Below, piece by piece: positions 6,028 through 63,390 of a stretch of DNA of 64,000 nucleotides (position 1 is the first letter of the stretch; every line of letters begins with the position of its first letter). The notes under the pieces were generated by a model. That model ran no database searches. It had not been told where the DNA came from and saw nothing but the letters and a program-made list of their open reading frames with translations. The stretch is taken from the NCBI GenBank assembly GCA_963775745.1, contig CAVZKE010000029.1:51959-115958 (forward strand). Direction: 5' to 3'. Position numbers and translations under genes: made by a program. This stretch comes from an uncultured Actinomycetota bacterium. GTDB lineage: Bacteria; Actinomycetota; Actinomycetes; Streptosporangiales; Streptosporangiaceae.

Positions 6028-6039
6028 CTGGAGTGAACA

Positions 6040-6459
6040 ATGACATTTAACGAGGAACTTCTCCGCCAGGCTATCGACCTGGCCGGCCAGGCCCGGGCGG
6101 CCGGAAACCCGCCGTTCGGATCGCTGCTGGCGGGCCCCGATGGCACCGTCCTGGCGCAGGACCGCAACACGTCGATCACTGACCGGGACATCACCGCCCA
6201 CCCCGAGCTGAAGCTGGCCCGCTGGGCGGCCCGTGAGCTCGACCCAGGCACGGCCGCCGCGACCACCATGTACACCAGCTGCCAGCCCTGCCCGATGTGC
6301 ACGGGCGCCATCGAGCGGTCCGGGCTGGGCCGGGTGGTCTTCGCGCTCTCCGGCGAACAGCTGGCCAGCATCAAGCGCGGCGGATTCGCGCCGGTGCCGC
6401 ACGAAGGGCCGGCGCTGTTCGAGGAGGCGCGCAAGGTCGTGGACGGTTACTACAGCTGA
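6040..6459 (+). CDS. nucleoside/nucleotide (CMP/dCMP-type, TadA/guanine-deaminase-like) zinc deaminase
   Basis: 139 aa. Zinc motifs AHPE and PCPMC are at the expected spacing. Confidence 0.85.
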   Translation: MTFNEELLRQAIDLAGQARAAGNPPFGSLLAGPDGTVLAQDRNTSITDRDITAHPELKLARWAARELDPGTAAATTMYTSCQPCPMCTGAIERSGLGRVVFALSGEQLASIKRGGFAPVPHEGPALFEEARKVVDGYYS

Positions 6460-6480
6460 GTTGACGGTTACTACAGCTGA
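6439..6480. repeat. 21-bp tandem duplication spanning the stop codons of two convergent genes
   Basis: gtggacggttactacagctga (6439-6459) and gttgacggttactacagctga (6460-6480) match at 20 of 21 positions. Copy 1 holds the deaminase TGA and copy 2 holds the minus-strand gene's stop. Confidence 0.9.
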
Positions 6481-48295: not shown

Positions 48296-49465
48296 ATGAG
48301 CGTTGACTTTCCCGCGTTTGCCCTGACTCCGGAACTCCAGGCCCTCCGCGAGTCGGTGCGAGCCCTGGCTGATGAGAAAGTCGCCCCGTACGCGGCCAAG
48401 GCCGACGAGGCCGCGGCCTGGCCGCAGGAGGCGTATGACGCCCTGGTCCAGGCCGATCTGCAGGCCGTGCATATCCCGGAGGCCTACGGCGGCCAAGGTG
48501 CCGATGCCCTCGCCACCGTGATCGTCATCGAGGAGGTGGCGCGGGCCTGCGCATCGTCCGCGCTGATCCTCGCGGTCAACAAGCTCGGCACCGTACCGCT
48601 GCTGCTGGCCGGCTCGGAGGAACTCAGGCAGCGCTACCTGCGGCCGGTCGCCGACGGAGCGGCGGTGTTCGCCTACGCGCTGTCAGAACCCGAGGCAGGC
48701 TCCGATGCGGCCGCGATGAAGACGCGCGCCGTCCGGGACGGTGACAATTACGTTCTGAACGGGACCAAGCGCTGGATCAGCAACGCGGGCGTGGCCAGGT
48801 TCTACACAGTGATGGCCGTGACCGACCCGCAGGCCGGTCCCGCAGGGATCTCCGCGTTCGTGGTGGAAAAGGGTGATGACGGCTTCTCGTTCGGTGCGCC
48901 CGAGCACAAGCTGGGCATCAAGGGCTCGCCGACCAGGGAGCTGTACTTCGACAATTGCGTGATCCCGGCCGACCGCATGATCGGCCCGGAGGGCAGCGGC
49001 TTCCGTACCGCGCTGGCCACCCTGGACCACACCAGGATCACGATCGCGGCCCAGGCGCTGGGCATCGGCCAGGGGGCGCTGGACTACGCCATCGGCTACG
49101 TCAAGCAGCGGCAGCAGTTCGGCCGCGCGGTGGCGGAATTCCAGGGCGTGCAGTTCATGCTGGCCGACATGGCGATGAAGGTCGAGGCGGCCCGGCAGCT
49201 GACCTATGCGGCCGCCGCCCGCTCGGAGCGCGCGATGTCCGGCGAGCGCGTCCCCGACCTCACCTTCATGTCGTCGGCGTGCAAGTGCTTCGCCTCCGAC
49301 GCGGCGATGGACGTGACCACCGATGCGGTCCAGTTGCTCGGCGGCTACGGGTACGTGAGCGATTACCCGGTGGAGCGGATGATGCGGGACGCCAAGATCA
49401 CCCAGATCTATGAGGGAACGAACCAGATCCAGCGCGTTGTCATGGCCCGGCAGCTGCTGAAGTAG
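48296..49465 (+). CDS. acyl-CoA dehydrogenase (FadE25/isovaleryl-CoA dehydrogenase-like)
   Basis: 389 aa. AYALSEPEAGSDAA...GTKRWISNAG...QFGRAVAEFQGVQFMLADM...GGYGYVSDYPVERMMRDAKITQIYEGTNQIQRVVMARQLLK. Confidence 0.93.
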   Translation: MSVDFPAFALTPELQALRESVRALADEKVAPYAAKADEAAAWPQEAYDALVQADLQAVHIPEAYGGQGADALATVIVIEEVARACASSALILAVNKLGTVPLLLAGSEELRQRYLRPVADGAAVFAYALSEPEAGSDAAAMKTRAVRDGDNYVLNGTKRWISNAGVARFYTVMAVTDPQAGPAGISAFVVEKGDDGFSFGAPEHKLGIKGSPTRELYFDNCVIPADRMIGPEGSGFRTALATLDHTRITIAAQALGIGQGALDYAIGYVKQRQQFGRAVAEFQGVQFMLADMAMKVEAARQLTYAAAARSERAMSGERVPDLTFMSSACKCFASDAAMDVTTDAVQLLGGYGYVSDYPVERMMRDAKITQIYEGTNQIQRVVMARQLLK

Positions 49466-49636
49466 CGCGGCGGCCGGCGTTTCCGCTGGTCAGCGCCCTG
49501 GGCCTGGGGCCGCCCGCCCCGCCCAAGCGGGCGGGTCTGCAGGCGGTCATCGGGGCCGGGCGGCTCGGCGCTTTGCCCGTTGTTCCCGGTTGGTTCCCGT
49601 CGTTTCCCAACGCGGTGCTGGATCCGTGCTGACCCC
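49397..49636 (+). repeat. copy A (native) of the repeated gene-end module: the last 69 nt of the acyl-CoA dehydrogenase CDS plus about 170 nt downstream
   Basis: Aligned by eye to 52136-52373 and 56741-56976 (see findings). Confidence 0.9.
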
Positions 49637-49780
49637 CTGGGCGATCATGGCGTGCATATCTTGGCGCGGTGGCCGCGGCCATGGTTGTCGTTGCCGCAAG
49701 CTGTCCACGACGGCACTGAGTTCACCTGGGCGGCGGAACCGGATGTGGTGTCGCTAGATCCGCCGTGTGGAGACGCCCGA

Positions 49781-49855
49781 GGCGGACTGACACTCTTGAT
49801 AATGAGCGGTCTGTAAACCGTCGGCTCAGCCTACGCAAGTTCGAACCGCCACCAC
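49781..49855 (+). pseudogene. tRNA-Tyr(GTA)-like remnant, not foldable as an intact tRNA
   Basis: ggcggac...gagcggtCTGTAAaccgtcggctcagcctacgcaaGTTCGAAccgccACCA. It has an anticodon-loop-like CTGTAA(A), a long-variable-arm-like cggctcagcct, a T-loop GTTCGAA and a ccgcc-ACCA end pairing with 5' ggcgg. The D-arm and the 3' half of the T-stem are missing and the loop is 1 nt short. Confidence 0.35.
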
Positions 49856-50194
49856 CTGCGGAAACGGGCCGTGAGCTGGGATTTCCCGGCTATGCGGGCC
49901 GTTTCCTTTGTCCCGTGGCGTGTCACCTTGTAGCGCTGCGCGCCGGCGTGTTGCGGTGTCCACGGACATATAGCGGACGGGAATCGGGGCCAGGGAGCGG
50001 TGTGTCTAGCCGCTCGCTGGCGCGGATCTGCCCGCAGCGTGCCTGGGTCCGGGGTGTTCCGGCTCACGTTCGCTGCTGGCTCGCCCCGGCCGCGACGCCC
50101 GCTGATCCAGGCCGTGGCCGCGAGCTGCCCGAGCTGCTGCGCGGCCAGTGCCGCAGCCCGGCCTGGCTGGCCGGCAGGGCGGCAGACCGCTGAT

Positions 50195-50225
50195 TTGACC
50201 TTGACCCTGGGGGAAGCCGCACAGT
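50195..50225 (+). promoter_or_regulatory. candidate MerR-type promoter: TTGACC, a 19-nt spacer, then CACAGT upstream of the MerR-family gene
   Basis: ttgacc at 50195-50200 (duplicated at 50201-50206) and cacagt at 50220-50225. The GTG start at 50266 is preceded by GAGGGAG. Confidence 0.25.
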
Positions 50226-50265
50226 CTGGGGAGCCGGGTGTCGGCCCGGCACGAGGGAGCCGTCC

Positions 50266-51123
50266 GTGGACTTGATGAGCATCGGTGAGTTCGCCAGGCT
50301 GTCCCGCCTGTCGCCCAAGGCGCTGCGCCTGTATGACGAGCTGGGACTGCTGCCGCCCGCCCAGGTCGATCCGGCCTCTGGTTACCGCTGGTATGCCGCC
50401 GGTCAGCTGGACAGTGCCCGGCTGGTCGCGTCGCTGCGCCAGATCGGAGTGCCGCTGGCGCAGATCCAGCTGATCCTCAGCCTGGAGCCGGAGGCCGCTG
50501 CGGCGCAGGTCGGCGCTTACTGGTCAGGGGCTGAAGCCGATCATGCTGCCCGCCGGGACCTGGCCGGCTACCTCGTTGACCGCCTGACTGGAAAGAGGAA
50601 CGTCATGCACGAGGTCAAGGTCCGCGATATCCCCGCCCGCAGCCTGCTCTGCCTGCTGCGGCATGCCAGCAATCAGCAGGAAGTCTGGGACATGGGCAAG
50701 GAGGTCATCGGCATGCTCAAGGCCCAGCCGGTGCCGGTGCCCCGCATCGAAGGAGTCGCCGGGGCCGCGTTCCTGATCTACTACGGGGAGGTGAACCAGG
50801 ACAGCGACGGCCCGGTGGAGTTCTGCTGGCCGGTGCCGCAGGACCTGGCCGGCCAGCTCGCCGCCAGCTTCCCCGGGCTCACGCTGCGCACTGAGCCTGC
50901 GCACCAGGAGGCGTGCGTTCACCTGGACCAGGACGCGACGGAGGCGCAGTGGCAAGCCGCCGGGGACTCGGCCTTGGCCTGGGCGGCCGGGCAGCAGCGC
51001 CAGCCCAGTGACCTGGGCCTGCGCGTTACACTCCTGACGACCGCCGCGCCAGTGACCGATGCCAGCAGGCGCGGCGGCAGCGACTTCGCCCTCCCGCTGC
51101 GCGACCGGGCCGGCGCCGCATGA
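50266..51123 (+). CDS. MerR-family transcriptional regulator with a GyrI-like effector-binding C-terminal domain
   Basis: MSIGEFARLSRLSPKALRLYDELGLLPPAQVDPASGYRWY (MerR HTH) plus a domain of about 150 aa, ...VKVRDIPARSLL...FLIYYGEV. Confidence 0.85.
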   Translation: MDLMSIGEFARLSRLSPKALRLYDELGLLPPAQVDPASGYRWYAAGQLDSARLVASLRQIGVPLAQIQLILSLEPEAAAAQVGAYWSGAEADHAARRDLAGYLVDRLTGKRNVMHEVKVRDIPARSLLCLLRHASNQQEVWDMGKEVIGMLKAQPVPVPRIEGVAGAAFLIYYGEVNQDSDGPVEFCWPVPQDLAGQLAASFPGLTLRTEPAHQEACVHLDQDATEAQWQAAGDSALAWAAGQQRQPSDLGLRVTLLTTAAPVTDASRRGGSDFALPLRDRAGAA

Positions 51124-51213
51124 AGACCACAGGCGTGATCTATGACGCGGGGACTGATGGTCAGCGGCGGTACGTGCGCGCGGCCGGCGATCCGGACCCG
51201 GAGGGGTACTTCG

Positions 51214-51777
51214 ATGCGAGTGGTTGACATCGTGCTCGGCGTGGGCTGGGTCATCTTCTGGGTGGGCTGGTTCGCCGCATCCGCCGGGGCTAAGCGGGGA
51301 CAGCGGGGACGGGGCAACTGGGCGCGCTTCGGGGGCGTCCGGGTGGCGCTCATCCTGGTCGTCGTGCTCCTGGTCCGGCTGCGGGTGCTGCAGGGGCATG
51401 GCGTCGGATACGTCACAGACCCGGTCCTGCGGGGCGTCGGCCTCGCCATCTGGGTCCTCGGCCTGGGACTGGCCGTCTGGGCGCGGATCTACCTCGGCCG
51501 GAACTGGGGAATGCCGACGTCCACCAAGGAAGACCCCGAGCTGGTCACATCCGGCCCGTACCGGATGATCCGGCACCCGATTTACACCGGCATCCTGCTG
51601 GCGATGATCGGCTCGGCGATCGCCGTCAGCGTCTGGTGGCTGATCGCCGTGGCACTGATCGGCGGGTACTTCATCTACAGCGCCTTCGTGGAGGAACGCA
51701 ATCTGACCAGGCTCTTCCCCGGTGCCTATCCGGAGTACCAGCAGTCCACCAAAATGCTGATCCCCGTTATCTTCTGA
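51214..51777 (+). CDS. isoprenylcysteine carboxyl methyltransferase (ICMT/PEMT)-family membrane methyltransferase
   Basis: Internal start MRVVDIVLG of ORF 51142..51777. Motif LVTSGPYRMIRHPIYTGILL, 4-5 TM spans. Confidence 0.8.
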   Translation: MRVVDIVLGVGWVIFWVGWFAASAGAKRGQRGRGNWARFGGVRVALILVVVLLVRLRVLQGHGVGYVTDPVLRGVGLAIWVLGLGLAVWARIYLGRNWGMPTSTKEDPELVTSGPYRMIRHPIYTGILLAMIGSAIAVSVWWLIAVALIGGYFIYSAFVEERNLTRLFPGAYPEYQQSTKMLIPVIF

Positions 51778-52064
51778 GGACGCGCGGCGCGTGCTGGCGG
51801 GATGGGCCGCGGCCGCGCTGCTGGCCGCGGGGCCTGCGCGGTGCCTGAACCGGATCCCGGTCCGGGTGCGGAGGTCCGCAGCCGGCCGGGCCGGTCAGCG
51901 GTCTGACTTTCGTGCTCCGGCAGTCCCGCTACGAGACGGTCAAGGACGGTGGCGTCTGGCGATGGGGTCGAAGGAGACGGGTCCTGCCGCACCCACCGCG
52001 AGGCCGACGGCACCGCCATGTGCGATTCCTACACGGCTGACTATTTCGCCCGAAACTAGTCCGG

Positions 52065-52373
52065 GTGCTGGAACCGTGCTGACTCAACACCCCGCCGCAC
52101 GCCATCTACCTGCGGAAACTGACCGCCGCTCGACGATCACTCAAATCTACGAGGGAACCAATCAGATCCAGCGCATGGTCATGGCCCGGCATCTGCTGAA
52201 GTAGCGCGGCGGTCGGCGTTTCCGCTGGTCAGCGGCCTGGGTCTGGGGTGGCGCCTCGCCCATGCGGGCGGGTCTGCAGGCAGTCATCGGGGCCGGGCGG
52301 CTCGGCGCTTTGCCCGTTGTTCCCGGTTGGTTCCCGTCGTTTCCCAACGCGGTGCTGGATCCGTGCTGACCCC
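52065..52373 (+). repeat. copy B of the gene-end module, including an orphan acyl-CoA dehydrogenase 3' end (...ITQIYEGTNQIQRMVMARHLLK*, stop 52202-52204)
   Basis: 52136-52204 matches the native CDS end with about 9 mismatches in 69 nt. 52264-52373 matches 49527-49636 at 109 of 110 positions by my manual alignment. Confidence 0.9.
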
Positions 52374-52376
52374 AGG

Positions 52377-52760
52377 TCAGCCCGGCACCCTGGGCTGACG
52401 TTCCGTGTGTCGCTCGATCTCGCCCGCCGGCACCGCCTTGGGCCCGTAAGCAGCCCAGCCGCGCGCGGCTGTAAGCGACACCCACGCGGTGACCGGGTAG
52501 ATGATCCAGCCGTTCCACACGTTGGGGGTTCCAGAGCGCTGGCTGAACCCTTCGGTCGGCCAGCCACCCGCATGCTTGTACTCCGTAGCGGCCCAGATCG
52601 GAACCAGGAGAGCCACGCCAACGGCGGACGCAGTGGTACTGATCTTGAACAGTCGCCTGGCCCTGGCCTGCTTGATCGCCTGCTGGCGGGCAATCTGCTC
52701 GCTGTCGTCGGCAGCAGCTAAGCCTGCGTCCGCGGGCCTGTCATCAATGAGGTGGACCAT
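52377..52760 (-). CDS. 2TM-domain membrane protein
   Basis: 127 aa. ...QQAIKQARARRLFKISTTASAVGVALLVPIWAATEY...WIIYPVTAWVSLTAARGW. Paralogue of 53326..53709. Confidence 0.75.
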   Translation of the reverse strand: MVHLIDDRPADAGLAAADDSEQIARQQAIKQARARRLFKISTTASAVGVALLVPIWAATEYKHAGGWPTEGFSQRSGTPNVWNGWIIYPVTAWVSLTAARGWAAYGPKAVPAGEIERHTERQPRVPG

Positions 52761-53325
52761 GTCGGCACCTCTCTTCCGGAGCGAGCCGTTTCTGCTAAGG
52801 CTCCACCGGCTGCAGGATTGACCTCCGAACGCCGGCCAGCTAGTGCCATAGGTCAGCCGCTGCCCGGCGAGAGCCCTGAGTTATCGCAATGTGCCGGTGT
52901 CAGCGACGATGTGCTGTCCTGTCCCGCGCGGCGGGTCGGCTCGACCCGTCCTGAGAGCCGCCGCCAGCTGCCAGGTGACGACGTGGTGCGCTGTCCGCAC
53001 CGCGCCGCGCCGCTGGAGGTTGACCATGGCGCGGGTGCCTCCGCTCGCGTCGGCCTGCTCCATCAGGGCGACGCTGCATGGCCTGAAACAGCGCGCGGAA
53101 ACGACACGACGCCAATGACCAATCTGTTCGAGCGGCTCAGCCTGCGGAAACTGCGTCATGCGTGACTTCCCCGGCCACTGAACGAACTGCTGATCTTAAG
53201 CCATTCGTCGGCGGACAGGTGACGTACGGCGCTGCCAGTTCAGCGACTGGTGATCGATCCTTGAACGTGGGAGCGGGATTCCATCACGGTTAACCAGCTC
53301 CCAGAGCGAAGAAGGAGGGGTCGAG

Positions 53326-53709
53326 ATGACGAACCTTGTCGATGACAGGCGTGCAGACATCGACTCGAGTGTGCCTGCCAGCAGCGAGAAGCTTGCCCGC
53401 CAGGAGGCTATTAAGCAGATTGAGCGCAGGCGCCGGTTCAAGGTCAGCACGGTCGTGTCCGGCCTCGGCATGATCATCCTGGTGGCGATCTGGGCCATCA
53501 CCGAGTACCACAACGCGGGCGGCTGGCCGGTTCACGGGTTCAGCCAGAGTTCCGGGATCCACGACGTGTGGAACTTCTGGATCGTCTACCCGGTCGGTGC
53601 GTGGGTGTTCCTGACTGCTGCGTTCGGCTGGGACGTTTACCGGCGCAGGTCTATCTCGGAGAGTGAGATCAAGCGCGAGATGGAGCGCCAGTCCGGCCCG
53701 TCCAGCTGA
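53326..53709 (+). CDS. 2TM-domain membrane protein, inverted paralogue of 52377..52760
   Basis: 127 aa. ...RQEAIKQIERRRRFKVSTVVSGLGMIILVAIWAITEY...WIVYPVGAWVFLTAAFGW. The RBS-like GAAGGAGGGG lies upstream. Confidence 0.78.
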   Translation: MTNLVDDRRADIDSSVPASSEKLARQEAIKQIERRRRFKVSTVVSGLGMIILVAIWAITEYHNAGGWPVHGFSQSSGIHDVWNFWIVYPVGAWVFLTAAFGWDVYRRRSISESEIKREMERQSGPSS

Positions 53710-54001
53710 TTGCCCGGTGCCGCTCAGCCGACACCGCATCGCGCGCACAGCGGATGTTCTTCCCCATGGAGGAACGCGGGCCGCCGTGGCCTCGTCCGCT
53801 GCCTCTACTTCGTCCCGGAAGAAATAGACGGTCTTGGCTTCGTCGGAAGCCAGGTCAGCAGGAAGCGTCATGGTCAAAGCCGGCCGTTCCTCGGACGAAG
53901 GCGGTCTCCGGACCAGTCGCTGCAACTGCTGTAGGGCTTGTCAACGGCCAATTTGCAGTCCCCGCTGGTGGCCAGTTAAAAGTCCCCACCCCTCGGGCTG
54001 A

Positions 54002-54778
54002 TCATTTCTTGGTCAGGACGGTTCCTCCTCGTGCTCGGGCCTGGCGCATGCGGAACGATTCGCCGTCTGTGATCACGACGTTCGCGTGGTGGAGCAGGCG
54101 GTCCAGGAGGCTGACGGCGGTGGTGTGCTCGGGCAGGAATCTGCCCCACTGGTCAAACGGCCAGTGGCTGGCCACGCCGAGGGCCCGGCGTTCGTAGGCG
54201 GCGGAGACGAACCGGAACAGCAGCTGGGCTCCGGTGTCGTCGAGCGGGGCGAACCCGACTTCGTCGACCAGGAGCAGGTCGTTGCGGGGCAGGTTCTCGA
54301 TGACGCGGCCGGCCGAGTTGCCGGCCAGGCCGCGGTAGAGGGTCTCGGCCAGGTCAGCGGCGGTGAAGTAGCGGACCTTGTGCCCGGCATGGACGGCGTT
54401 GATGCCGAGGGCGACCAGGACATGGCTCTTACCGGTGCCGGCCGGCCCGACCAGGCAGAGGTTCTCCCGGGCGGTGATCCATTCCAGGGACGCGAGGTAG
54501 TCCAGGGTGGGGCCGGGGATGGAGCACGCGGACCGGTCGAGCTCGTCGAGGGTCTTGGTGACGGGGAACGCGGCGGTCTTCATCCGGGTCGCGGCGCTGG
54601 AGGCATCGCGGGCGGTGATCTCGGCGTCGATCAGGGTCCGCAGCAGTTCCTCGGGTGCCCACCGCTGGGTCTTGGCGGTGCTGAGCAGCTCGGGGGCGAG
54701 CTGGCGGATGGTGGAGAGCTTGAGCCGCCGGAGCCCGGCGGCGATGTCGGGCGCCAGCGGCGGCGCGGCGGCTGTCAT
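54002..54778 (-). CDS. istB: IS21 helper ATPase IstB
   Basis: 258 aa, intact. Walker A LVGPAGTGKSHV and Walker B LLLVDEVG. ATGA overlap with istA. Confidence 0.92.
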   Translation of the reverse strand: MTAAAPPLAPDIAAGLRRLKLSTIRQLAPELLSTAKTQRWAPEELLRTLIDAEITARDASSAATRMKTAAFPVTKTLDELDRSACSIPGPTLDYLASLEWITARENLCLVGPAGTGKSHVLVALGINAVHAGHKVRYFTAADLAETLYRGLAGNSAGRVIENLPRNDLLLVDEVGFAPLDDTGAQLLFRFVSAAYERRALGVASHWPFDQWGRFLPEHTTAVSLLDRLLHHANVVITDGESFRMRQARARGGTVLTKK

Positions 54779-56237
54779 GACAGCGCCCCGATCGCGTAGT
54801 CGGCCAGCGGGCGGACCGGGACGGCCGGCAGGTCCAGGATCAGCGCGTCACCGGCCGGGACCTGGGGCTCGGGCACACCGGCCCCGGCGGCCAGGATGGA
54901 CCGCACGTCAGCGGGCCGCCACCGGCAGAACGCGACCGCCCGGTCCAGCGCGGCCAGGAACTCTTCGCCGCCGTGGGCGGCGCGCAGCGTGTTCAGCTCG
55001 GCCAGGTCCGTGCCGAGCCGGGTGCTGCCGGCTGCGGCGGCGCCGGTGATGAACGCCTCGGCGACCGGGCCGAGTGAGCAGAACTCCTTCTCCGCCGCGG
55101 TCTTCGGCCGCACTGCCCGCCGGGGCGCGGGCCGCGGGCCGCCGTAATGCTCATCGCGCACGGAGGCCTCGCCCGGGGCGATGAGGGTGTGCTCGGCGAT
55201 GACCTCCCCGGTGGTGGTCATGATCACCAGCAGCCGCCCGTCATCGGTGCGCAGCCGCACCCGCGAGCCGATCAGGCGGACGGGCACGGAGTAACGGGCT
55301 GATGCGAATCGGACACATGCCAGCCGGTCGACCTTGCGGGTCACGAACCTGCCGATGCTGGTCCGCAGCGACGGCAGCGGCGCCAGCAGCTCCCGCTCGA
55401 TCACCAGCCGCTCCGCGGGCACCGCGCAGATCTCGCTATGAGTCGCGCCGTTGACCTCGGCGCACCACGCCCGCGCCGCCTCGTTCGCCGCGGTGAAGCC
55501 GCCGAACGGAGCCTGCGGCACGAGCAGGTCGGCCTTGGCATAGCCGACGAGGTTCTCGACGATCCCCTTCGATTCCGGGTCGGCGGCCTCGCAGAAATCG
55601 GGCCGGAACCCGTAATGGCCGGCGAACCGGACGTACTCCGCCGTGGGCACCACGACGTTGGCGACCACACCGCCCTTCAGGCAGCCCATCCGGTCCGCCA
55701 GCACCTTGCCCGGCACCCCGCCGAGGGTCTCGAAGCACTCCGCCAGCATCGCCAGCGTCGTGCCGGACCGCTCATCAGCGGCGAACCGCACGAAACCGGG
55801 ACCAGGCCAGCACCGCGCAGAACACGTGCAGGCCGCCCTCGGCACCCCAGGCCGGTCACCAGATGCTCACCCGGAGACCAGACCGCCTGCCGGCGGCCAC
55901 GGTGATGCTCCCGGCGCCACAGCCGCTTCCGCTCCGCGACCAGCCGGCGGAAGTTCCGCGCCGACCCGGCATACCCCGCCGCCCGGGCCGCCGGCAGCAG
56001 CCGCTTCGCCGAGATCCGGCCCGACGTCTTCCCCACCCGCTCGGCGACCAGCTCTGCGACACCGTCATAGTTATGCCCCCGCACAGCGCGCTCCGGCACG
56101 CCGCCACCGGCCTCGTGCCGGGCGATCACCCGTTTGACTGTCCTATGCGTGGTACCCGTGACCTCCGCGGCCCCGCGGTACGTGCCCACCTCACGGTAGG
56201 CCGAAATGATGTCCATCCGATCCCTCGCAGACTTCAA
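54775..56237 (-). pseudogene. istA: IS21 transposase IstA with at least two frameshifts (about 55.80 and 55.86 kb)
   Basis: N-terminal frame ...ISAYREVGTYRGAAEVTGTTHRTVKRVI...WSPGEHLV. Middle frame WGAEGGLHVFCAVLAWSRFR. C-terminal frame FVRFAADERSGTTLAMLAECFETLGGVP... Confidence 0.85.
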
Positions 56238-56669
56238 TGGAAGCTCCCCGGGCGGTGCGGTGACTGACTGACACCGCCACCGTCACCGCCCGGGCCTCAA
56301 CCCCCGGGACGACACGACGAACGAGGGATGGGGACTTTTAACTGGCCACCAGCGGAGACCTCGACCCGGCCACACATGGGGACTTTCTCATGGCCACGGA
56401 CAAGGGCTTGTTCGGCTGCTGGGATCTGCGAACTAGCCCCTCCACGAGACTTGCTCACTGTCTCACCCCGTTCTCTGCCACAGATCACGCCTAGGAAACT
56501 CTGAGCTAACAAGGCGCACGGTGCAACGCATTTGGCAACGTCATCTGCTTCTGACTCCCGCGCCGCATCTGGCTGCGCCGGGCTCGGCGATCGTTGGCGG
56601 GTCGATTCAGCGCCAGAACTGCGGGCGGCATTCCTACCAGGAACGTCGCGTTACACCTGACACTGCCGC

Positions 56670-56976
56670 GTGCTGGATCCGTGCTGGCTGCTGGCTACCG
56701 GACATGCCGTCTACCTGCGGAAACTGCCCGTAGCTCCGGTATCACGCAGATCTACGAGGGCACGAACCAGATCCAGCGCGTGGTCATGGCCAGGCAGCTC
56801 CTGAAGTAGCCGGGCCGTCAGCGTTTGCGCTGGTCAGCAGCTATCTCTTGGGCGGCGCCTCGGTCGTGTGGGTCGGTCTGGGGCCGGTCGGGGGCGGGCC
56901 GGACGGTCGGGCGATATGCCCGTTGTTCCTAGTTGGTTCCCGTCGTTTCCGGACCGCGTGCTGAGTTTGTGCTGAC
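56670..56976 (+). repeat. copy C of the gene-end module, including an orphan 3' end (...ITQIYEGTNQIQRVVMARQLLK*, stop 56807-56809); the downstream part is clearly more diverged
   Basis: 56741-56809 aligns to 49397-49465. The downstream blocks gcgtttgcgctggtcagc, tgcccgttgttcctagttggttcccgtcgtttcc and gtgctgagtttgtgctgac are conserved. Confidence 0.85.
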
Positions 56977-57206
56977 CCCTGGGGGTCGCTACGGGGCGGC
57001 CATCATGATCTGGTCCCTGTCGGCTATCCATGGCGGCGCGGGGCTGACCCAGGTGGCCGACACGGACGAAGGCCCGCCACCTACGACAAGAGCATCGTCG
57101 AAGTCAGCATCTGCACTCCCGGGGACTGCCGGCGGCGTGTCCTGGTCACGGTGGCCAGGACCGGGCCGGAAAGGCACGCTTGGAATCAGCGAGCGGCCAT
57201 CGCGGT

Positions 57207-57628
57207 ATGCGTGACCGTGGGCACAGGACTGTGCCGCATACCGCGGACTTGCGCATCGAGGGGTGGGGGCCGACCCGGGAGGATTGCATCGCCGAAGCGC
57301 TGCGTGGCCTGGTGGAAAGCTTCGCCGATGTCAGCGGGACCCGATACCAGCGGGTCACTGGTGTCATGTTTCCGCCGGTTCCGACGCCGACCTGCTCGCT
57401 GCCGCCATCGAGGAGGTCATCTACGGCCTGGACACTGGCGGGGAGATCCCGGCCGCCGTTGAGGTGAGCCGCGCTGCTGATGACGGGATCGACCTGATGT
57501 TGCGGGTCGTGGATGCCAGCGCGGTGGAAATCGTCGGCGCCGCGCCCAAGGCTGCCTCGCTGTCCGGGCTGAGCTGTGCCCCGGCAGCGTCCGGGCGGTG
57601 GTCGTGCGCTGTGACGGTCGATGTCTGA
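57207..57628 (+). CDS. archease; one frameshift near 57370
   Basis: MRDRGHRTVPHTADLRIEGWGPTREDCIAEALRGLVESFADV...RVTGVMF, then one frame over, AGSDADLLAAAIEEVIYGLDTGGEIPAAVEV...LMLRVVD...SCAVTVDV*. Confidence 0.8.
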
Positions 57629-57717
57629 CAGTCCCGCCCGGCGGGCGATTCGGCCAGGCAGCCGTCCCCACCCAGCGGTGGCCGCGTGCGTGCCCGCCCA
57701 GCGCCGGCCCGCCTGGG

Positions 57718-59136
57718 TCAGCCTTTGATCACGCCGAGTGGCACGAGCCGGGCGATCTTACGGCACAGGCCGCCGCCTTCGGCGGCTTCCACCACGGCGT
57801 TGACGTCTTTGTAGGCTTCGGGGGTTTCCTCGGCCAGCCCGCGGGCCGATGCGCCGCGCACCGCGATGCCCGCCGCTTCCAGCCGGTGCCGCAGCTGGGT
57901 CCCGTTGACGGTGCGCTGTGCCTGGTGGCGGCTCATCACCCGGCCCGCGCCGTGGCAGGTGGACGCGAACGCACCGCCACCGGGGACGCCGGCCAGCACG
58001 TAGGAGTAGGTGCCCATGGATCCGGGGATCAGCACCGGCTGGCCGGCCACCTGCAGGTCCTGCGGCAGGTCCGGGTGCCCGGGCGGCAGTGCCCGGGTGG
58101 CGCCCTTGCGGTGCACGCACAGCAGCTTCGGCTGCCCGTCCACGGCGTGGGTTTCCATCTTCGCCAGGTTGTGGGACACGTCGTAGACGAGGTCGAGCCG
58201 CGCGCCGGCCGTCTGGCGGAAGATCTCGCGGGCAGTGTGGGCGAGGACGTGGCGGTTGGCGCGGCCGTAGTTGGCGGCTGCGGCCATGGCGCCCAGGTAG
58301 CCGCGGCCCTCGGGGGAGGTGACTGGTGTGCAGGCGAGCTGGCGGTCGGGCATGTGGATGCCGTAGCGCGGCATGGCCTGGTCCATGATCCGCACGTGGT
58401 CGCCGCAGATCTGGTGGCCGAGCCCCCGTGAGCCGCAGTGGATCATGACGCAGACCTGGCCGTGGCAGAGCCCGAACCGCTGCGCGGTGACAGCGTCGTA
58501 GATCTCCTCGACCGCCTGCACTTCCAGGAAATGGTTGCCCGAGCCGAGGCTGCCCACCTGGTGCAGGCCCCGGTCGATGGCCCGGGTGCTGACCTGGCCG
58601 GGGTCGGCGCCGGCGACAGCGCCCTCATCCTCACAGCGCAGCAGGTCACGCTCGGTGCCGTAGCCCTGCTTGACCGCATAGCGGGCGCCGTCGGCCAGCA
58701 CGTCCCTCATCTGGCCCGGGCCGGCCAGATGCCAGATGCCTCCCCGGCCCGCGCCACGCGGGACAGCGGCCGCGAGCTGGTCCATCACGGCGCCCAGGAC
58801 CGGCCTGACCTCGTCTCGGTCCAGGCAGGCCGCGAGCAGGCGCACACCGCAGGAAATGTCGAACCCCACCCCGCCGGGGGAGACCGCCCCGCCGGCCGCC
58901 GGATCGGTGGCCGCGACCCCGCCGATCGGGAACCCATACCCCAGGTGCACATCGGGCATCGCATACGACGCCGTCACAATGCCCGGCAGCGCCGCCACGT
59001 TGGCCACCTGCTGCAGCGAGCGGTCCGCAGCCAGACCTAGCAGGAGCTGCCGGGAGACATATACGATCCCTGGCACCCGCATCGCTCCCCGCTGCGGGAT
59101 CCGGAACCGGTAGGGGGTTTCCTCGACCAGTTCCAT
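57718..59136 (-). CDS. rtcB: RNA-splicing ligase RtcB (3'-phosphate/5'-hydroxyl RNA ligase)
   Basis: 472 aa, intact. [55 protein letters not shown]...HRKGAT, PGSMGT, CHGAGR. Confidence 0.93.
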
Positions 59137-59546
59137 CTCCGGCCTCCCGTACCCCGGCCTGGCAGTGGCAATCCCGCGACGTACCGGCCGGATGAACCGG
59201 CCCCTGCGAGTTCTCTTCCCACGCTTGCCGGATGCCGGCCATCTCGCCAGAGGAATAGGTCCTGTCCTCCAGGGGCTGCCGGGAGCGTCAGGGACTCCCA
59301 GCCCGGCGGCGCCCGTGCCCGCATCCCGATATCGGTCAGCGCTCCCGAACTCCTCGGCCTCCGGGGGCGGCCCGGGGTCGCGGGTCGCAAGCAGATCGCC
59401 CTGCTCTAGGCGTGTGTGCGGATGATCAGGTACCTCGCTGGTGGGTGACCGGTGATGATTGCGCCCCGCAGCGGGCCGGTCAGTACGAACGAAGCGCAGT
59501 CACCGGCGCTGCAGGGATCGTTAGGGCTTGGAAATGAACGACACGC

Positions 59547-60781
59547 TCAATCAGGCATGTCGGCTGGGTGCACGGTGTAGTTCCATTCCCCGTGGAACTC
59601 GTGCGGGGTGACGTGGCGTTGGAGCAGGTTCTTCATCTCCCGGTCAGGGATCTTGATTCCGCGCGGATAGGCGCCGGTGTCGCGTTCGGCACGCACGGTC
59701 AGGCCGGTGCGGGTGGTGGTCCCGGCGATGAGGTTCACCGCGACCTCGTGGCTGGTCAGCGGCTGCCCGGCCCAGTTCATCGAGATGTGGCTGAACAGCC
59801 GGTGCTCGATCTTGTTCCACTTGGACGTGCCCGGCGGCATGTGGCAGACCGTGATCGCCAGGCCGGTCTCGGTGGCCAGGGCCGCCAGTTCCTTCTTCCG
59901 CAGCCGCAGCCGGTAGCCGTTGGAACCGCCCGCGTCTGCGGTGACCATGAGCCTGGCCGCCTGCGGATACGCGGCGGCGCCGACGGTGGACCACCAGCGG
60001 CGGATGGTCTCGACGGCGAACTGCCCGGTGTCTCCGTCGCAGCCCACCGATACCCAGCCAGTGTCGGCGGCCAGGTCGTAGACCCCGGAGGGCACCGCCT
60101 TGCCCTGTTCGCCGGGGAAGTCGTGCACGCCGGCGCGGCGTGGCTCGCCGGCCGGTCGCCAGGCCCGGCCCTTGTTCGCGTACTCGCCGACCGTTTCTTT
60201 CTTCTTCGCGTCCACGCTGATCACCGGCTCGCCTTCGGCCAGGCAGGCAGTGACCTGGCCGTTGATGTAGCGGAACTGGGCGTCCCGGTCTGCGTGCTGC
60301 TTTGCTTCCACGGTCTTGGCGCTGGCCTGCATGCGGTAGCCCAGCGGTCCGCTCAGCAGCCGGCCGACGCTGTGGCGGGACACATGGTGCCCCTGTGCCG
60401 CCAGCTCGCCGGCGAGGTTGCGGGTCGATCTGATGGTCCAGCGCAGCCGGCTCATCGGGTCACCCCGGGTCTCGGGCTCGACCAGCGCGTCCAGGGCGTC
60501 GAGCAGGCCGGGGTCGGTCTCGGTCAGCGGTTTGCGGCCGGCCCGGAGCGCCGGGCACGCCCGGGCATCGCGTCCCCACCGCCTTCCAGCTCCCCGACCC
60601 CGGCAGTGATCGTCACCCGGGATACCCCGGAGGCACGCGCCACCAGCGAAATCCCGCCGTGTCCCAGCGAGCGGGCCTCGGCGGCCAGCACCAGGCGGCG
60701 CTGCCGCTCGTCCAGGTGCGGCACGATCGCGTCGAACTTCGCCGAAAGGACCCGCTCGTCGATCTCCATGACCAGTGCCAT
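59547..60781 (-). pseudogene. ISAzo13-family transposase, one frameshift near 60.55 kb
   Basis: N-terminal frame MALVMEIDERVLSAKFDAIVPHLDERQRRLVLAAEARSLGHGGISLVARASGVSRVTI. The rest reads ...KPLTETDPGLLDALDALVEPETRGDPMSRLRWT...SVDAKKKETVGEY...VTADAGGSNGYRLRLRKKELAALATETGLAITVCHMPPGTSKWNKIEHRLFSHISMNW. Confidence 0.85.
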
Positions 60782-60835
60782 ACCAGAACTGTGCCAGGAC
60801 AATCAGGACATGTAAATCTAATTTAGAGACACTCC

Positions 60836-61915
60836 CCTAGATCGTTGACCGGGAAATATGCGCAGGTCGGGGCCTAGTGGTCGTAGGCGATCAAGGAGCG
60901 CTTGACTGGTGCGCCGATCATCCAGTTGTGCCAGATGCAGGCGTTGAGGGCGAGCAGCCGCTGCACGATCCTGGCCCAGAGCCCGGCGGGGACGCGGCCG
61001 CCGTGGCGTTCGAGGCCGAGCTGGTTCTTCAGCGTCCAGATGATCGCCTCGACCCGCTGCCGCAGCCAGTTCGGGAAGTACCGGGGGGCCTTCTCGTCTT
61101 TGCGGGCCGGGCGGATCAGGGCCAGGCCCAGGCCGGGGCTGGCGAAGAAGGCCTCGGTCTCCTCCCCGGACAGGCCCTTGTCCGTGACGACGGCGGTGCC
61201 CGGCGCCGGGCGGTTAGCGGGCTGGTCCTTGAGCATCTGCCGGGCGTGCTCGCGCTCGCCGAAGAGCTTGGGATTGGCCAGGCCGAAGCCGGTGACGGTG
61301 CCGTCGCAGGTGCAGATGAGCAGCAGCTTGCTGCCCCAGTACCAGCGCGAGTGGCTGGGGCAGTACCCGTAGCCCGCCCACCCGTACAGGTCAGAGCGCT
61401 TCGCGGTGACCGCGGACTGGCCGCACGGGACGGGCGTAGCGTCCATCAGCCGCAGCATCTCCGCGCTGCCCGGCGTGTGATCGGCCAGCCACCGCAGTGC
61501 CGCCTCCATCAGCGGCGCGAGTGCCTTGAGGCGGTCGTTGTACTCCGACTGGCCCAGCAGCCGCGGGAACAAGTGCCCCACCTGCTTAGCCGCGGCGCGC
61601 AGCCAGTGCCGCTCATCATCAAAGCGCAGCAGCACCTGCGCCACGGCCAGGCACACCAGTTCCGCGTCGGTCACCTCCGGCGGCTTGCCAGGCCCGCGGC
61701 GGCTGAACCCGCGCGAGGGGATGATCCGATCGGTCAGTTCCACGTAAAGTGCGGTCAGGAGAGTGTCCAGGTCGGCGATCATGACGGGCTCCAGGGTCCG
61801 GACGTGTGTAGACACGCCGATCCTGGACACTCTTCACTTAACAGTCACGGACCACTCCCGGCGAGTCGCCGAACATGCTCCCCACCAGCCACGAATTACC
61901 GGTCAACGATCTAGG
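60836..61915 (-). mobile_element. IS982-family insertion sequence (about 1.08 kb) with 17-bp perfect terminal inverted repeats
   Basis: cctagatcgttgaccgg (60836-60852) and ccggtcaacgatctagg (61899-61915). No target duplication was recognised. Confidence 0.85.
60874..61782 (-). CDS. IS982-family transposase
   Basis: Start taken at MIADLDTLLTALYVELTDRI inside ORF 60874..61830. ...VVTDKGLSGEE...RQRVEAIIWTLKNQLGLERHGGR...SLIAYDH. Confidence 0.88.
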   Translation of the reverse strand: MIADLDTLLTALYVELTDRIIPSRGFSRRGPGKPPEVTDAELVCLAVAQVLLRFDDERHWLRAAAKQVGHLFPRLLGQSEYNDRLKALAPLMEAALRWLADHTPGSAEMLRLMDATPVPCGQSAVTAKRSDLYGWAGYGYCPSHSRWYWGSKLLLICTCDGTVTGFGLANPKLFGEREHARQMLKDQPANRPAPGTAVVTDKGLSGEETEAFFASPGLGLALIRPARKDEKAPRYFPNWLRQRVEAIIWTLKNQLGLERHGGRVPAGLWARIVQRLLALNACIWHNWMIGAPVKRSLIAYDH

Positions 61916-61982
61916 CAAGGCGTACCCGGCCCTATGGACCGGTGAGCCGTCCAGGATGGGGTACGTGATATCTGGTAGTGTG

Positions 61983-62234
61983 TCAGCCTGCGCTGGACGC
62001 CGACATCAGGTAGGACACGAATAGCTTCACGGTGGCCAGCTTCGGATAGTCCTGAACAGGGATCTCGATACCGGTGCGGTCGTGTATGGCCGCCAGCAAG
62101 GTCAGAAAGTCCATCGAGTCGATGTCGGCCACCTCTTGGAGGGGCAGGTCAGGATCAACGGCGCCGAGATCTATCGCGGGGGCAATGTCGCGCAGCGTGG
62201 CCACCAGCACGGCGGTTGCGTCTTCCTCGGTCAT
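61983..62234 (-). CDS. stand-alone acyl/peptidyl carrier protein
   Basis: 83 aa from MTEEDATAVLVATLRDI (ATG 62234-62232). Phosphopantetheine site motif ADIDSMDFLTLL. Confidence 0.7.
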   Translation of the reverse strand: MTEEDATAVLVATLRDIAPAIDLGAVDPDLPLQEVADIDSMDFLTLLAAIHDRTGIEIPVQDYPKLATVKLFVSYLMSASSAG

Positions 62235-62507
62235 AAGGTTCCCAGCTGAGGCCAGCTTCCGCAGGGTCAGCCTCGTGACGGCGTCAGTCGAAGGGTATGA
62301 CAGCTTAGTGCGCGGCGAGGGCACCCGTGACGCCTGCCCGGGCCGTTGGCCCCGCCTGTCACCGTCGGCCGACCCTTCCGTGGCGGGATGCCTGCGCCGA
62401 AGGTGAGCTTAGGAGCACCGAAAATCCGGCGGACCCGGGGAGGTATGCGGCCCGGAAGAGGCGCAGCCGTCGCCGACCTGGGAGCCTACGCGGCGCGGGA
62501 GGCCCTG

Positions 62508-63032
62508 ATGACGCTAGACCAGGCTGAAGCTGTTGATGACGTCCTTACCACCGTGAGTCTCTCCAATGGCCGGACCCTGACCGTGCGGACCGTGACGCGG
62601 GCCGATGTCGAGGGGCTGAACGCGCTGTTCGAGGGGCTCTCCGATGACGATCGGTACTACCGCTTCTTTAGCATGTCCCATCCCGGCCGCAAGTTCCTTG
62701 AGCAGATGACCCGGGCTGCAGAGGAGGGCGGCTATCGCCTGGTCGCGGTCGTTTCCGGCCCCAAGGACCAACTCGTTGCCGAGGCGGGCTACGCCATCCT
62801 GCCTGACGGCAGCGGTGAGTTCGCCCTCACTATTGCCACTGGCTGGCGAGGCTGGCTAGGTCCCTACCTGCTCGACGCCCTCGTTGCCGCCGCCGCAGCC
62901 CGTGGCGTGCCTAACCTGCAAGCAGACATCCTGGTCAGCAACGTCCGGATGCTCGGGTTGGTCTCCCATCGTGGCTACGTAACGCTCGAGCGTCAGCTCT
63001 CTCAGGTTCGGGTCGCCATCGATGCCGCTTAA
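62508..63032 (+). CDS. GNAT-family N-acetyltransferase (Pat-like C-terminal-domain type)
   Basis: Internal ATG 62508 of ORF 62346..63032. ...LTVRTVTRADVEGLNALFEGLSDDDRYYRFF...ATGWRGWLGPYLLDALVAAAAARG. Confidence 0.75.
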   Translation: MTLDQAEAVDDVLTTVSLSNGRTLTVRTVTRADVEGLNALFEGLSDDDRYYRFFSMSHPGRKFLEQMTRAAEEGGYRLVAVVSGPKDQLVAEAGYAILPDGSGEFALTIATGWRGWLGPYLLDALVAAAAARGVPNLQADILVSNVRMLGLVSHRGYVTLERQLSQVRVAIDAA

Positions 63033-63390
63033 CCTCGCCAAGGCCCCAGCAGCGGCGGACCGGCCGTGCCTAGCCGCTAAGAATCCCGGCACGCGAGGGG
63101 GCTGGCCGAGGTGGCCTGTGCACCCGGAGATACGGCTCAGGCCCACGTGACGAGCACGTCGGCCCATCCCCTCCGTGTGCATGACGGGCGTGAGTGCTTG
63201 CTTGAGGGAGGGCATCCGCGCCGGGCATGAGTAGCCAAGGTACCCGCCGATCACGGCCTGCACAGGCCGCCTGACAGTTAACGGCCTTTGGGCGGGCCGG
63301 TCCATACCAGTGTCCGGGCGGGGAGGTGACTATGGTCCCTGGTGGCACTGACCGGCCTGGGGAAAGCTGGTCCAGAAGAGGTGACTGACA

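What the first reader, a model, noticed from the sequence alone, without database searches (positions are those of the whole stretch)
49527..49636. The 110-nt non-coding tail of the module is better conserved than the coding part (candidate sRNA, att arm or protein-binding element)
Between copies A and B, the 69 coding nucleotides differ at about 9 positions. The 110 nt at 49527-49636 versus 52264-52373 differ at a single position in my manual alignment. The roughly 60 nt between the stop codon and this block are much more variable.

Copy C keeps the same sub-blocks: tgcccgttgttcc.agttggttcccgtcgtttcc and gtgctg-N5-gtgctgac. The block has a pyrimidine-rich strand with a reiterated GGGAAC on the complement (gggaaacgacgggaaccaaccgggaacaacggg). 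Non-coding DNA outlasting adjacent coding DNA implies function or very recent gene conversion.
Basis: seen in the sequence. Interest (0 to 1): 0.6.

Follow-up and report, generated by a model that had tools for sequence, protein, structure and literature searches.

The report
Attachment-site arm of tandem genomic islands
The conserved 110-nt non-coding block is one arm of the recombination (att) site of a family of integrase-driven genomic islands that insert into the end of an acyl-CoA dehydrogenase gene in Streptosporangiaceae. It is an ordinary kind of mobile-element feature, although this particular family and target appear undescribed.

Summary
Copies A and B match at 109/110 positions, against 61/69 in the coding part and 42/49 in the stretch between. 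Only this array carries the block in the 5.96-Mb genome.

It is not an sRNA: there is no Rfam hit, no fold better than shuffles for A or B, and no consensus structure or covariation in 24 homologues.

It is the P' arm of an att site. The full unit is about 310 nt:
- a GTGCTG-N5-GTGCTGAC pair;
- a TCTACCTGCGGAAACTG box;
- a 38-nt invariant core inside the gene's last 69 nt;
- a hairpin;
- three or four phased ~10-nt repeats;
- a second GTGCTG-N5-GTGCTGAC pair.

The strict P' motif occurs in 27 of 401 genomes of the family (15 of 90 genera), with 0 control hits. In most fetched loci it lies just downstream of the orthologous gene. It bounds 2-14 kb of varied cargo. A xis-int pair (excisionase plus tyrosine integrase) lies inside many of these islands. 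In 18 of 27 integrase loci a P arm follows int on the same strand.

A same-genus relative has the empty site. The window's array is three stacked, integrase-less cassettes, with a fourth partial copy just outside the window.

This is a new member of a known kind. The scan's index shows it only on this window.

The parts
48296..49465 (+). Target gene: a fadE25-like acyl-CoA dehydrogenase (389 aa), lying downstream of purK
   Evidence: Pfam Acyl-CoA_dh_N, _M and _1 domains match at E 7e-31 to 9e-46. purK lies at 46591-47724.
49397..49434 (+). Core (crossover region) in copy A: ATCACCCAGATCTATGAGGGAACGAACCAGATCCAGCG, coding ITQIYEGTNQIQR
   Evidence: The 38-nt stretch is almost invariant in attL-type and attR-type sites of all elements. 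In G023 the two ends share an exact 51-nt block that covers it.
49466..49572 (+). Less conserved part of the P' arm. It holds the GCGTTTCCGCTGGTCAGCG box and a GC-rich hairpin (CCCGCCC-aagc-GGGCGGG, about 49518-49535).
   Evidence: A is 42/49 identical to B over 49466-49514. This part is conserved only among close copies (own A and B, and G188).
49575..49608 (+). Phased ~10-nt direct repeats: GCCCGTTGTT / CCCGGTTGGTT / CCCGTCGTTT / CCC
   Evidence: CCC recurs at 9-11-nt spacing. These columns are conserved in 24 P' arms from many genera. They are candidate Xis or accessory-protein sites; that assignment is an inference.
49615..49633 (+). P' arm pair GTGCTGGATCCGTGCTGAC, candidate integrase arm-type sites, at the end of attL (copy A)
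   Evidence: Both hexamers are invariant in 24 of 24 homologues while the 5-nt spacer varies.
49637..52064 (+). Cassette 1 (2.4 kb): a MerR-family regulator (50266-51123) and a PEMT/ICMT-like methyltransferase (51142-51777). No integrase.
52065..52373 (+). Junction B, a complete attP-like unit. In order: P pair 52065-52083; TCTACCTGCGGAAACTG 52105-52121; core from 52136; orphan gene end to 52204; P' arm with pair 52352-52370.
52374..56669 (+). Cassette 2 (4.3 kb): two 2TM-domain ORFs, a stray CCTGCGGAAACTG box at 53139-53151, and an IS21 copy (istB 54002-54778, istA remnants 54775-56237, minus strand). No integrase.
56670..56979 (+). Junction C, a complete attP-like unit of a different subtype. 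In order: P pair 56670-56688 (GTGCTGGATCCGTGCTGGC); core from 56741; orphan gene end to 56809; P' pair 56958-56976 (GTGCTGAGTTTGTGCTGAC).
   Evidence: The spacer subtype matches that of G374 and G076.
56980..64000 (+). Cassette 3. It runs on to about window-equivalent 67484 and ends at partial copy D (G000:C29:119443-119615). Contents: an archease remnant, RtcB (57718-59136, minus strand), transposase genes, a carrier protein, a GNAT, a PRTase and, beyond the window, an aldehyde dehydrogenase.

Best explanation
The 110-nt block is the P' arm of the attachment site of a family of genomic islands. These islands are mobilised by a heterobivalent-type tyrosine integrase and its excisionase (xis-int).

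The islands integrate by site-specific recombination into a 38-nt, almost invariant stretch in the last 69 nt of the fadE25-like acyl-CoA dehydrogenase gene. That stretch encodes ITQIYEGTNQIQR. The element brings a substitute gene end, a stop codon and a hairpin, so the gene stays intact.

After integration, attL is gene body, core and P' arm. This is copy A, including the block in question. attR is P arm, core and the old gene end.

When a further island integrates into an occupied site, the internal junction is a complete P-core-P' unit. Copies B and C are such junctions. The window therefore shows three islands stacked by tandem accretion.

None of the three has an integrase. They are CIME-like cassettes that could move only with Int and Xis supplied in trans, or they are simply fossils.

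Within the block:
- the GTGCTG-N5-GTGCTGAC pair is most likely a pair of integrase arm-type sites;
- the three or four helically phased ~10-nt repeats next to it are most likely Xis or accessory-protein sites.

The block outlasts the neighbouring coding DNA for two reasons. First, its last ~64 nt are binding sites that travel with the element. Second, A's coding part is chromosomal (at least left of the crossover) while B's coding copy comes from an element, so the two have separate histories. The extra A/B identity in the first ~46 nt points to a recent common source or to gene conversion.

Shown: the anatomy, the distribution, the linkage to xis-int, and the empty site in a relative.
Inferred: which protein binds which repeat, the exact crossover point, and whether the cassettes are still mobile.
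For: 1. The module has the same GTGCTG pair at both ends, plus a B/C/D-only left arm that is not homologous to the gene.

2. The same architecture (gene end, P' arm, 2-14 kb of cargo, P arm and orphan gene end) recurs in other genera: G023, G033, G036 and loci L061-L080.

3. The strict P' motif occurs in 27 of 401 family genomes and 15 of 90 genera, with 0 control hits and 0 of 7 in the own genus.

4. A 421-aa tyrosine integrase (PF00589, E 2e-18) lies inside these islands. Close homologues on the same contig as a P' arm always fall inside the island.

5. In 18 of 27 integrase loci a P arm plus core follows int on the same strand. In L091, L092, L094, L102 and L103 it lies within 0-650 nt.

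6. An excisionase gene overlaps the int start (HTH_17 E 6.6e-12; TIGR01764 at 45 bits against a cut-off of 28.8).

7. Integrases only 40-43% identical (Acrocarpospora, Nonomuraea) still have GTGCTGAC-N3-GTGCTGAC just after the matched int region, with no fadE fragment. The motif therefore tracks the integrase and not the target.

8. Same-genus G006 has 210 nt between the gene's stop and a syntenic block that in this genome begins 29 kb downstream. G001 has 2.3 kb there and G003 has 6.4 kb.

9. The conservation pattern is invariant hexamers with variable spacers at 10-11-nt phasing.

10. Across genera the P' arm is up to 97-98% identical while the gene end is 83-86% identical (G324 and G188).
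Against: - No integrase or xis, not even a remnant, is in the window's array. No close homologue was found elsewhere in this assembly at E <= 1e-40. The MAG is only 66% complete.
- Binding of Int or Xis to the repeats is untested.
- A fold search with the modelled Int N-terminal domain gave no significant hit.
- The partial copy D has a tail like A-C rather than the native tail seen in G006. The array's right end is therefore degenerate and the terminal attR is missing.
- The first ~46 nt of the block are not conserved across the family. Constraint alone does not explain 109/110.
Confidence: 0.85

Rival explanations
1. Recent segmental duplication or gene conversion alone. On this view the block is identical in A and B only because it was copied recently, and it has no function.
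For: - The first ~46 nt of the block are 45/46 identical between A and B but are not conserved across the family.
- A and B carry the same spacer subtype (GGATCC), whereas C carries another.
Against: - Identity is not uniform. The coding part (61/69) and the adjacent tail (42/49) are far more diverged within the same module.
- The last 64 nt are conserved in 15 genera at island ends and are linked to xis-int.
- C has not been homogenised with A and B.
Confidence: 0.06
2. A small RNA or a structured 3' UTR element transcribed downstream of the dehydrogenase gene.
For: - The block lies just after a gene's stop codon.
- Copy C folds better than shuffled sequence (z = -2.8).
- A GC-rich hairpin precedes the block.
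Against: - There is no Rfam match at E <= 1 in 46-60 kb.
- Copies A and B fold no better than shuffles on either strand (z = +1.2, +0.3, +1.9).
- RNAalifold on 24 homologues gives -1.2 kcal/mol and 0 covarying pairs.
- The same GTGCTG pair also sits upstream of orphan gene ends and just after integrase genes.
Confidence: 0.03
3. Recombination sites or operators for some other protein, such as an integron-type, Xer-type or transposon system, or a transcription factor. On this view the linked xis-int is incidental.
For: - Most cassettes lack an integrase.
- The integrase sits kilobases away from the att site in several islands.
Against: - There is no integron integrase; the island Int scores 42 bits against a cut-off of 265 for TIGR02249.
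- The units are ~310-nt direct repeats with no hairpin-forming inverted repeats and no target-site duplications.
- The GTGCTGAC pair stays next to int even in a distant clade with another target.
- The IS21 in cassette 2 sits inside the cassette, away from the module boundaries; a companion note of this scan reports its own ends and 6-bp duplication, which I did not check.
Confidence: 0.05

Closest known systems
attP/attL/attR of heterobivalent tyrosine integrases (phage lambda; mycobacteriophage L5; actinomycete elements such as pSAM2)
   Same: - A composite site of about 250-300 bp.
- A core shared with the chromosome.
- Repeated arm motifs, unlike the core, on both arms.
- Tandem phased sites next to one arm pair.
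- An adjacent xis-int operon.
- Integration into the 3' end of a conserved gene, with the gene end replaced.

Background comes from the reviews PMC4111918 and PMC4880445 and from my own knowledge.
   Different: - The target is the conserved IYEGTNQIQR-coding motif of an acyl-CoA dehydrogenase gene, not a tRNA gene.
- The arm motif is GTGCTGAC.
- The Int N-terminus carries a conserved C-x-C...C-x-H motif.
- Int lies 3-7 kb from attR in many islands.
- No biochemistry exists for this family.
CIMEs and tandem accretion of ICESt1/ICESt3-type islands at the 3' end of fda in Streptococcus thermophilus; accretion of pathogenicity islands in Streptomyces
   Same: Integrase-less elements that keep attL and attR are stacked in tandem at the 3' end of a housekeeping gene, by site-specific integration into an occupied site. 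The definition and references are in PMC5704250.
   Different: - The phylum, the integrase and the att sequence differ.
- I did not look specifically for conjugation genes.
- Cis-mobilisation has not been shown.
- The arrays here hold up to three or four cassettes, mostly small (2-14 kb).
Integron gene-cassette arrays
   Same: A row of small cassettes with unrelated cargo, separated by recombination sites. Most cassettes have no recombinase of their own.
   Different: - There is no IntI, no attI and no Pc promoter.
- The sites are 310-nt lambda-type units, not 60-140-nt folded attC sites.
- The cassettes carry their own promoters and regulators and read in either orientation.

Membership tests
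Lambda/L5-type (heterobivalent) tyrosine-integrase att site | A cognate tyrosine recombinase gene is physically linked to the site | tested here: met
   Met in relatives, not in this window. The integrase matches PF00589 at E 2e-18. In 18 of 27 integrase loci a P arm plus core lies downstream on the same strand, and it is adjacent in 5 of them. The window's own array has none.
Lambda/L5-type (heterobivalent) tyrosine-integrase att site | A core sequence is shared by both ends of the inserted DNA and by the target | tested here: met
   A 38-nt stretch is almost invariant in all attL-type and attR-type sites. G023 has a 51-nt exact repeat.
Lambda/L5-type (heterobivalent) tyrosine-integrase att site | Arm-type repeats, unlike the core, are present on both arms and bound by the Int N-domain | tested here: inconclusive
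   On sequence the feature is met. GTGCTG-N5-GTGCTGAC occurs on both the P and P' arms, is invariant in 24 of 24 homologues, and is kept beside int in a 40%-identical clade. Binding is untested. The N-domain model has pLDDT 61 and a beta-beta-beta-alpha topology, and no Foldseek hit at E <= 0.001.
Lambda/L5-type (heterobivalent) tyrosine-integrase att site | A recombination directionality factor (Xis) is present | tested here: met
   An ORF overlapping the int start matches HTH_17 (E 6.6e-12) and TIGR01764 'excise' at 45.1 bits against a cut-off of 28.8. It is 98% conserved across islands.
Lambda/L5-type (heterobivalent) tyrosine-integrase att site | Presence/absence polymorphism at the same chromosomal site | tested here: met
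   Between the gene and the same syntenic block, G006 has 210 nt, G001 has 2.3 kb, G003 has 6.4 kb and this genome has 29 kb.
Lambda/L5-type (heterobivalent) tyrosine-integrase att site | Demonstrated integration and excision | not testable with these tools
This needs PCR or in vitro assays.
CIME / tandem accretion array | Elements are flanked by att sites but lack integration and transfer genes | tested here: met
   tblastn with four integrases and with Xis finds nothing in the array at E <= 0.1. Pfam hits for the cargo show no recombinase other than IS transposases.
CIME / tandem accretion array | Internal junctions are hybrid, attP-like sites in direct orientation | tested here: met
   B and C each carry P pair, box, core and P' arm on the + strand. 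Similar tandems occur in L067, L069, L076 and L084.
CIME / tandem accretion array | Mobilisation in cis or trans by a related element | not testable with these tools
   No experimental or read-level data are available.
Small RNA / structured RNA element | A conserved secondary structure with covariation, or a match to a known family | tested here: not met
   No Rfam hit. z-scores are +0.3 to +1.9 for A and B. RNAalifold gives no structure and 0 compensatory pairs.
Integron | IntI-type integrase with attI, and attC sites that fold as imperfect hairpins | tested here: not met
   The island Int scores 42 bits against a cut-off of 265 for integron integrase. The 110-nt block, which makes up the P' part of the unit, shows no stable fold in copies A and B.

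The most novel reading that the evidence does not exclude
The gene end is a standing cassette platform rather than a graveyard. Integrase-less cassettes keep complete, near-perfect P-core-P' units because they are still excised, shuffled and exchanged between genera by Xis and Int supplied in trans from the minority of islands that encode them. On this reading the site acts as an integron-like, lambda-type exchange point for defence and niche genes (for example QatABCD) in Streptosporangiaceae.
Probability: 0.25. Interest if true: 0.55.

Novelty: new member of a known kind. Interest (0 to 1): 0.33.

Why it matters
This explains a puzzling pattern, non-coding DNA better conserved than the coding DNA beside it, by a well-known mechanism. 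The finding can therefore be filed as ordinary mobile-element anatomy.

The useful by-products are these:
- a defined xis-int/att system whose target is a nearly invariant coding motif of acyl-CoA dehydrogenases. A sister subfamily uses the homologous motif of a paralogue. The system could serve as an integration tool for rare actinomycetes;
- a mapped hot spot where Streptosporangiaceae collect cargo, including anti-phage systems;
- a clear example of tandem accretion of integrase-less cassettes in Actinomycetota.

Tried and rejected
- **Rfam scan** of 46-60 kb at E <= 1: only a chance ASdes hit elsewhere.
- **RNA folding and alifold**: no support for an RNA.
- **ARAGORN** on 48-64 kb: no tRNA or tmRNA, so this is not a tRNA-type target.
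- **Integrase in the array**: a search for an integrase or its remnants found nothing.
- **Partial copy D as terminal attR**: I first read D as the terminal attR carrying the native tail. I rejected this because the empty-site relative G006 has a different native gene end (LLKG*) and tail. D is a degenerate junction, and the true right end of the array is lost or lies beyond an ISAzo13-like insertion.
- **Int N-terminal domain**: structure prediction and Foldseek against PDB were inconclusive.
- **Literature**: searches for an acyl-CoA dehydrogenase att target found nothing relevant.
- **Frameshifted integrases**: I did not treat frameshifted integrases in relatives as firm pseudogenes.

Full report
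**1. The observation**

The window holds three copies of a module:
- A at 49359-49636. This is the true 3' end of a 389-aa acyl-CoA dehydrogenase gene (48296-49465; Pfam Acyl-CoA_dh_N, _M and _1) plus its tail.
- B at 52098-52373.
- C at 56703-56979.

Between A and B the last 69 coding nt match at 61/69. The next 49 nt match at 42/49. The block is less diverged than the coding part (Fisher p = 0.002). Similarity ends abruptly after GTGCTGACCCC.

The 110-mer occurs nowhere else in the 5.96-Mb assembly, a MAG that is 66% complete.

**2. The full unit**

B and C are also preceded by the motif that ends the block: GTGCTGGAACCGTGCTGAC at 52065-52083 and GTGCTGGATCCGTGCTGGC at 56670-56688. After it comes about 50 nt that B and C share with each other but not with the gene body in A.

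With one mismatch allowed the window has five such sites, all on the + strand, against 0.07 expected. The genome's five perfect sites all lie in this array.

A fourth, partial copy D lies just outside the window at G000:C29:119443-119615. It has the left pair, the left arm, the orphan gene end and about 105 nt of tail. It lacks the phased repeats and the right pair.

The unit is therefore about 310 nt. In order:
- the GTGCTG-N5-GTGCTGAC pair;
- a ~21-nt variable spacer;
- the TCTACCTGCGGAAACTGCC box;
- the last 69 nt of the gene;
- the stop codon;
- a GCGTTTCCGCTGGTCAGCG box;
- a GC-rich hairpin;
- three or four ~10-nt phased repeats;
- a second GTGCTG-N5-GTGCTGAC pair.

**3. Cargo**

- A to B (2.4 kb): a MerR-family regulator and a PEMT/ICMT-like methyltransferase.
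- B to C (4.3 kb): two 2TM-domain ORFs and an IS21 copy.
- C to D (10.5 kb): RtcB, an archease remnant, transposases, a carrier protein, a GNAT, a PRTase and an aldehyde dehydrogenase.

No tyrosine integrase lies on this contig. tblastn with the family's integrases and Xis finds no remnant in the array.

**4. Relatives**

A search of 60 relatives with the module found the gene end everywhere. In several genera it also found a second, orphan gene end a few kb downstream, and the last ~64 nt of the tail just after the real gene.

G023 shows the pattern clearly:
- the gene;
- a P' arm, ...CCCGTCGTTTCCGGACCCCGTGCTGAATCCGTGCTGAC;
- 14 kb of cargo;
- GGTGCCGGATCCGTGCTGAC, then the CTGCGGAAACTG box, then an orphan gene end;
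- a native-looking terminator.

The two ends in G023 share an exact 51-nt repeat inside the coding region.

The strict motif CGTTTCC-N5-9-GTGCTG-N5-GTGCTGAC is present in 27 of 401 genomes of the family. That is 15 of 90 genera, and 0 of 7 genomes of the own genus apart from this one. The reversed-pattern control gave no hits. Variant sites exist that this motif misses (for example G033 and G036), so this count is a lower bound.

Twenty further loci showed bounded islands of 2.4-14 kb and several tandems. Record titles place the family as Streptosporangiaceae: Trebonia, Acrocarpospora, Nonomuraea, Sphaerisporangium and many soil MAGs.

**5. The recombinase**

Among 102 cargo ORFs the most frequent Pfam family was Phage_integrase, with 5 members. 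These form one cluster, represented by a 421-aa protein (PF00589, E 2e-18).

Close homologues (57-100% identity) that lie on the same contig as a P' arm always fall inside the island. This holds in G207, G345, G181, G273, G324, G101 and G180.

A scan of all species genomes returned 27 integrase loci. In 18 of them a P arm plus core lies downstream of int on the same strand. In L091, L092, L094, L102 and L103 it lies within 0-650 nt, which is the classic int-attP arrangement.

An ORF overlapping the int start is an excisionase (HTH_17 E 6.6e-12; TIGR01764 at 45 bits against a cut-off of 28.8). It is 98% conserved.

Integrases only 40-43% identical (Acrocarpospora, Nonomuraea) still have GTGCTGAC-N3-GTGCTGAC just after the matched int region and no fadE fragment nearby. 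The hexamer pair therefore follows the integrase and not the target. That is what is expected of arm-type sites.

A sister subfamily (G288 = S. viridialbum, G375, G101) carries the same arms around the end of a different acyl-CoA dehydrogenase paralogue...IFEGTSEIQRLLIGRAVTGLPVQ*.

**6. The empty site**

In same-genus G006 the gene's stop is followed after 210 nt by a syntenic block. In this genome that block begins 29 kb downstream, at window-equivalent 78516. G001 has 2.3 kb at the site and G003 has 6.4 kb.

G006 and G001 end the protein with LLKG* and have unrelated tails. Copies A-D here all end with LLK* and share a tail. This fits a gene end supplied by the element.

It also shows that D is not the native right end. 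The array's terminal attR is missing, and an ISAzo13-like transposase gene sits just beyond D.

**7. The crossover**

The stretch ATCACCCAGATCTACGAGGGCACCAACCAGATCCAGCG is almost invariant in every attL-type and attR-type site. Homology between gene and element starts exactly at its first base. The crossover must lie in it; its exact position is inferred, not shown.

**8. Not an RNA**

- There is no Rfam match.
- A and B fold no better than shuffles on either strand (z = +1.2, +0.3, +1.9). Only C does (z = -2.8).
- RNAalifold on 24 P' arms gives no structure and no compensatory pair.
- The conservation pattern is invariant hexamers with free spacers and 10-11-nt phasing over about 60 bp. That is typical of proteins bound on one face of DNA.

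**9. Why A and B are so alike**

Under the integration model, A is chromosome-core-P'(island 1) and B is P(island 1)-core-P'(island 2). A's coding part is chromosomal at least left of the crossover, while B's coding copy comes from an element, so the two have different origins. The two tails are both element P' arms of the same subtype (GGATCC spacer). C belongs to another subtype (AGTTT, as in G374 and G076).

Across genera the P' arm can be 97-98% identical while the gene end is 83-86% identical (G324 and G188). G188 also shares 145 nt of cassette-1 interior.

Constraint explains the last ~64 nt. The 45/46 identity of the first part of the block is not family-wide. It points to a recent common source or to gene conversion between A and B.

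**10. State of the elements**

In the loci chosen by the P' motif, the integrases fall as follows:
- intact: L077 and L079;
- frameshifted: L063, L064 and L076;
- truncated: L061, L065, L068 and L069;
- absent: the remaining loci, including the whole array here.

Frameshifts in MAGs may be assembly errors. Most cassettes are therefore integrase-less, like the CIMEs defined for ICESt1-type islands, and the tandems match the accretion model (PMC5704250).

**11. Limits**

- Binding and recombination are untested.
- The Int N-terminal domain model (pLDDT 61, beta-beta-beta-alpha) gave no significant structural match.
- I found no paper describing this target or family, but only the held library was searched.

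**Verdict**

This is a real feature and it is correctly located. It is an att-site arm, not an sRNA. It is a new member of a known kind and of modest interest.

Noticed in passing
L025 (G023:C27) 2623-6903, minus strand: The 14-kb island in G023 carries a QatABCD-type anti-phage system: QatA E 1.5e-60, QatC E 1e-96, QatD E 1.6e-56. Two NUDIX genes lie alongside it.
   Followed up: partly
L025 10045-13787; also L077, L066, L080, L075: A four-gene module recurs in islands of at least four genera: an HATPase_c_2 protein, an unknown protein, a radical SAM protein (weak pVip-like hit, E 9e-15) and an APH-like kinase. Its function is unknown. It may be a defence or a small-molecule system.
   Followed up: partly
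L073, L074, L064 (G375, G288 = Sphaerisporangium viridialbum, G101), first 560 nt: A sister subfamily with the same arms (GTGCTGAGTTGGTGCTGAC) flanks the end of a different acyl-CoA dehydrogenase paralogue...IFEGTSEIQRLLIGRAVTGLPVQ*. Target choice has therefore moved between paralogues at the homologous motif.
   Followed up: partly
window 53139-53151: A stray copy of the P-arm box CCTGCGGAAACTG sits inside cassette 2, between two divergent 2TM-domain ORFs.
   Followed up: partly
L081 10085-10369 and homologues: The integrase N-terminus has an invariant C-x-C...C-x-H motif, inserted between the first two predicted strands of a beta-beta-beta-alpha domain. This could be a zinc site in the presumed arm-binding domain.
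   Followed up: partly
P' tails of most islands (alignment A3, columns 5-47): A 12-bp-stem hairpin, GAACGGGCCGCC...GGCGGCCCGTTC, followed by TCTCGTG sits between the stop codon and the phased repeats. By eye it shows paired changes between islands. It is probably the terminator that the element supplies for the gene. RNAalifold on the whole alignment did not pick it up.
   Followed up: no
window 49637-49781: The first 145 nt of cassette 1 are shared with an island in another genus (G188). ARAGORN finds no tRNA there.
   Followed up: partly
window 59547-61830 and L024 3962-5221: Several transposase genes lie in and beyond cassette 3: ISAzo13-like DDE (E 7.5e-125 and 4.7e-138) and an IS4-like DDE_Tnp_1. 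One of them lies directly after partial copy D.
   Followed up: no
G004:C19:337864-337935 (same genus): An orphan gene end lies 1 kb downstream of the real gene, with no strict P' motif. A small or degenerate island may be present in a congener.
   Followed up: no
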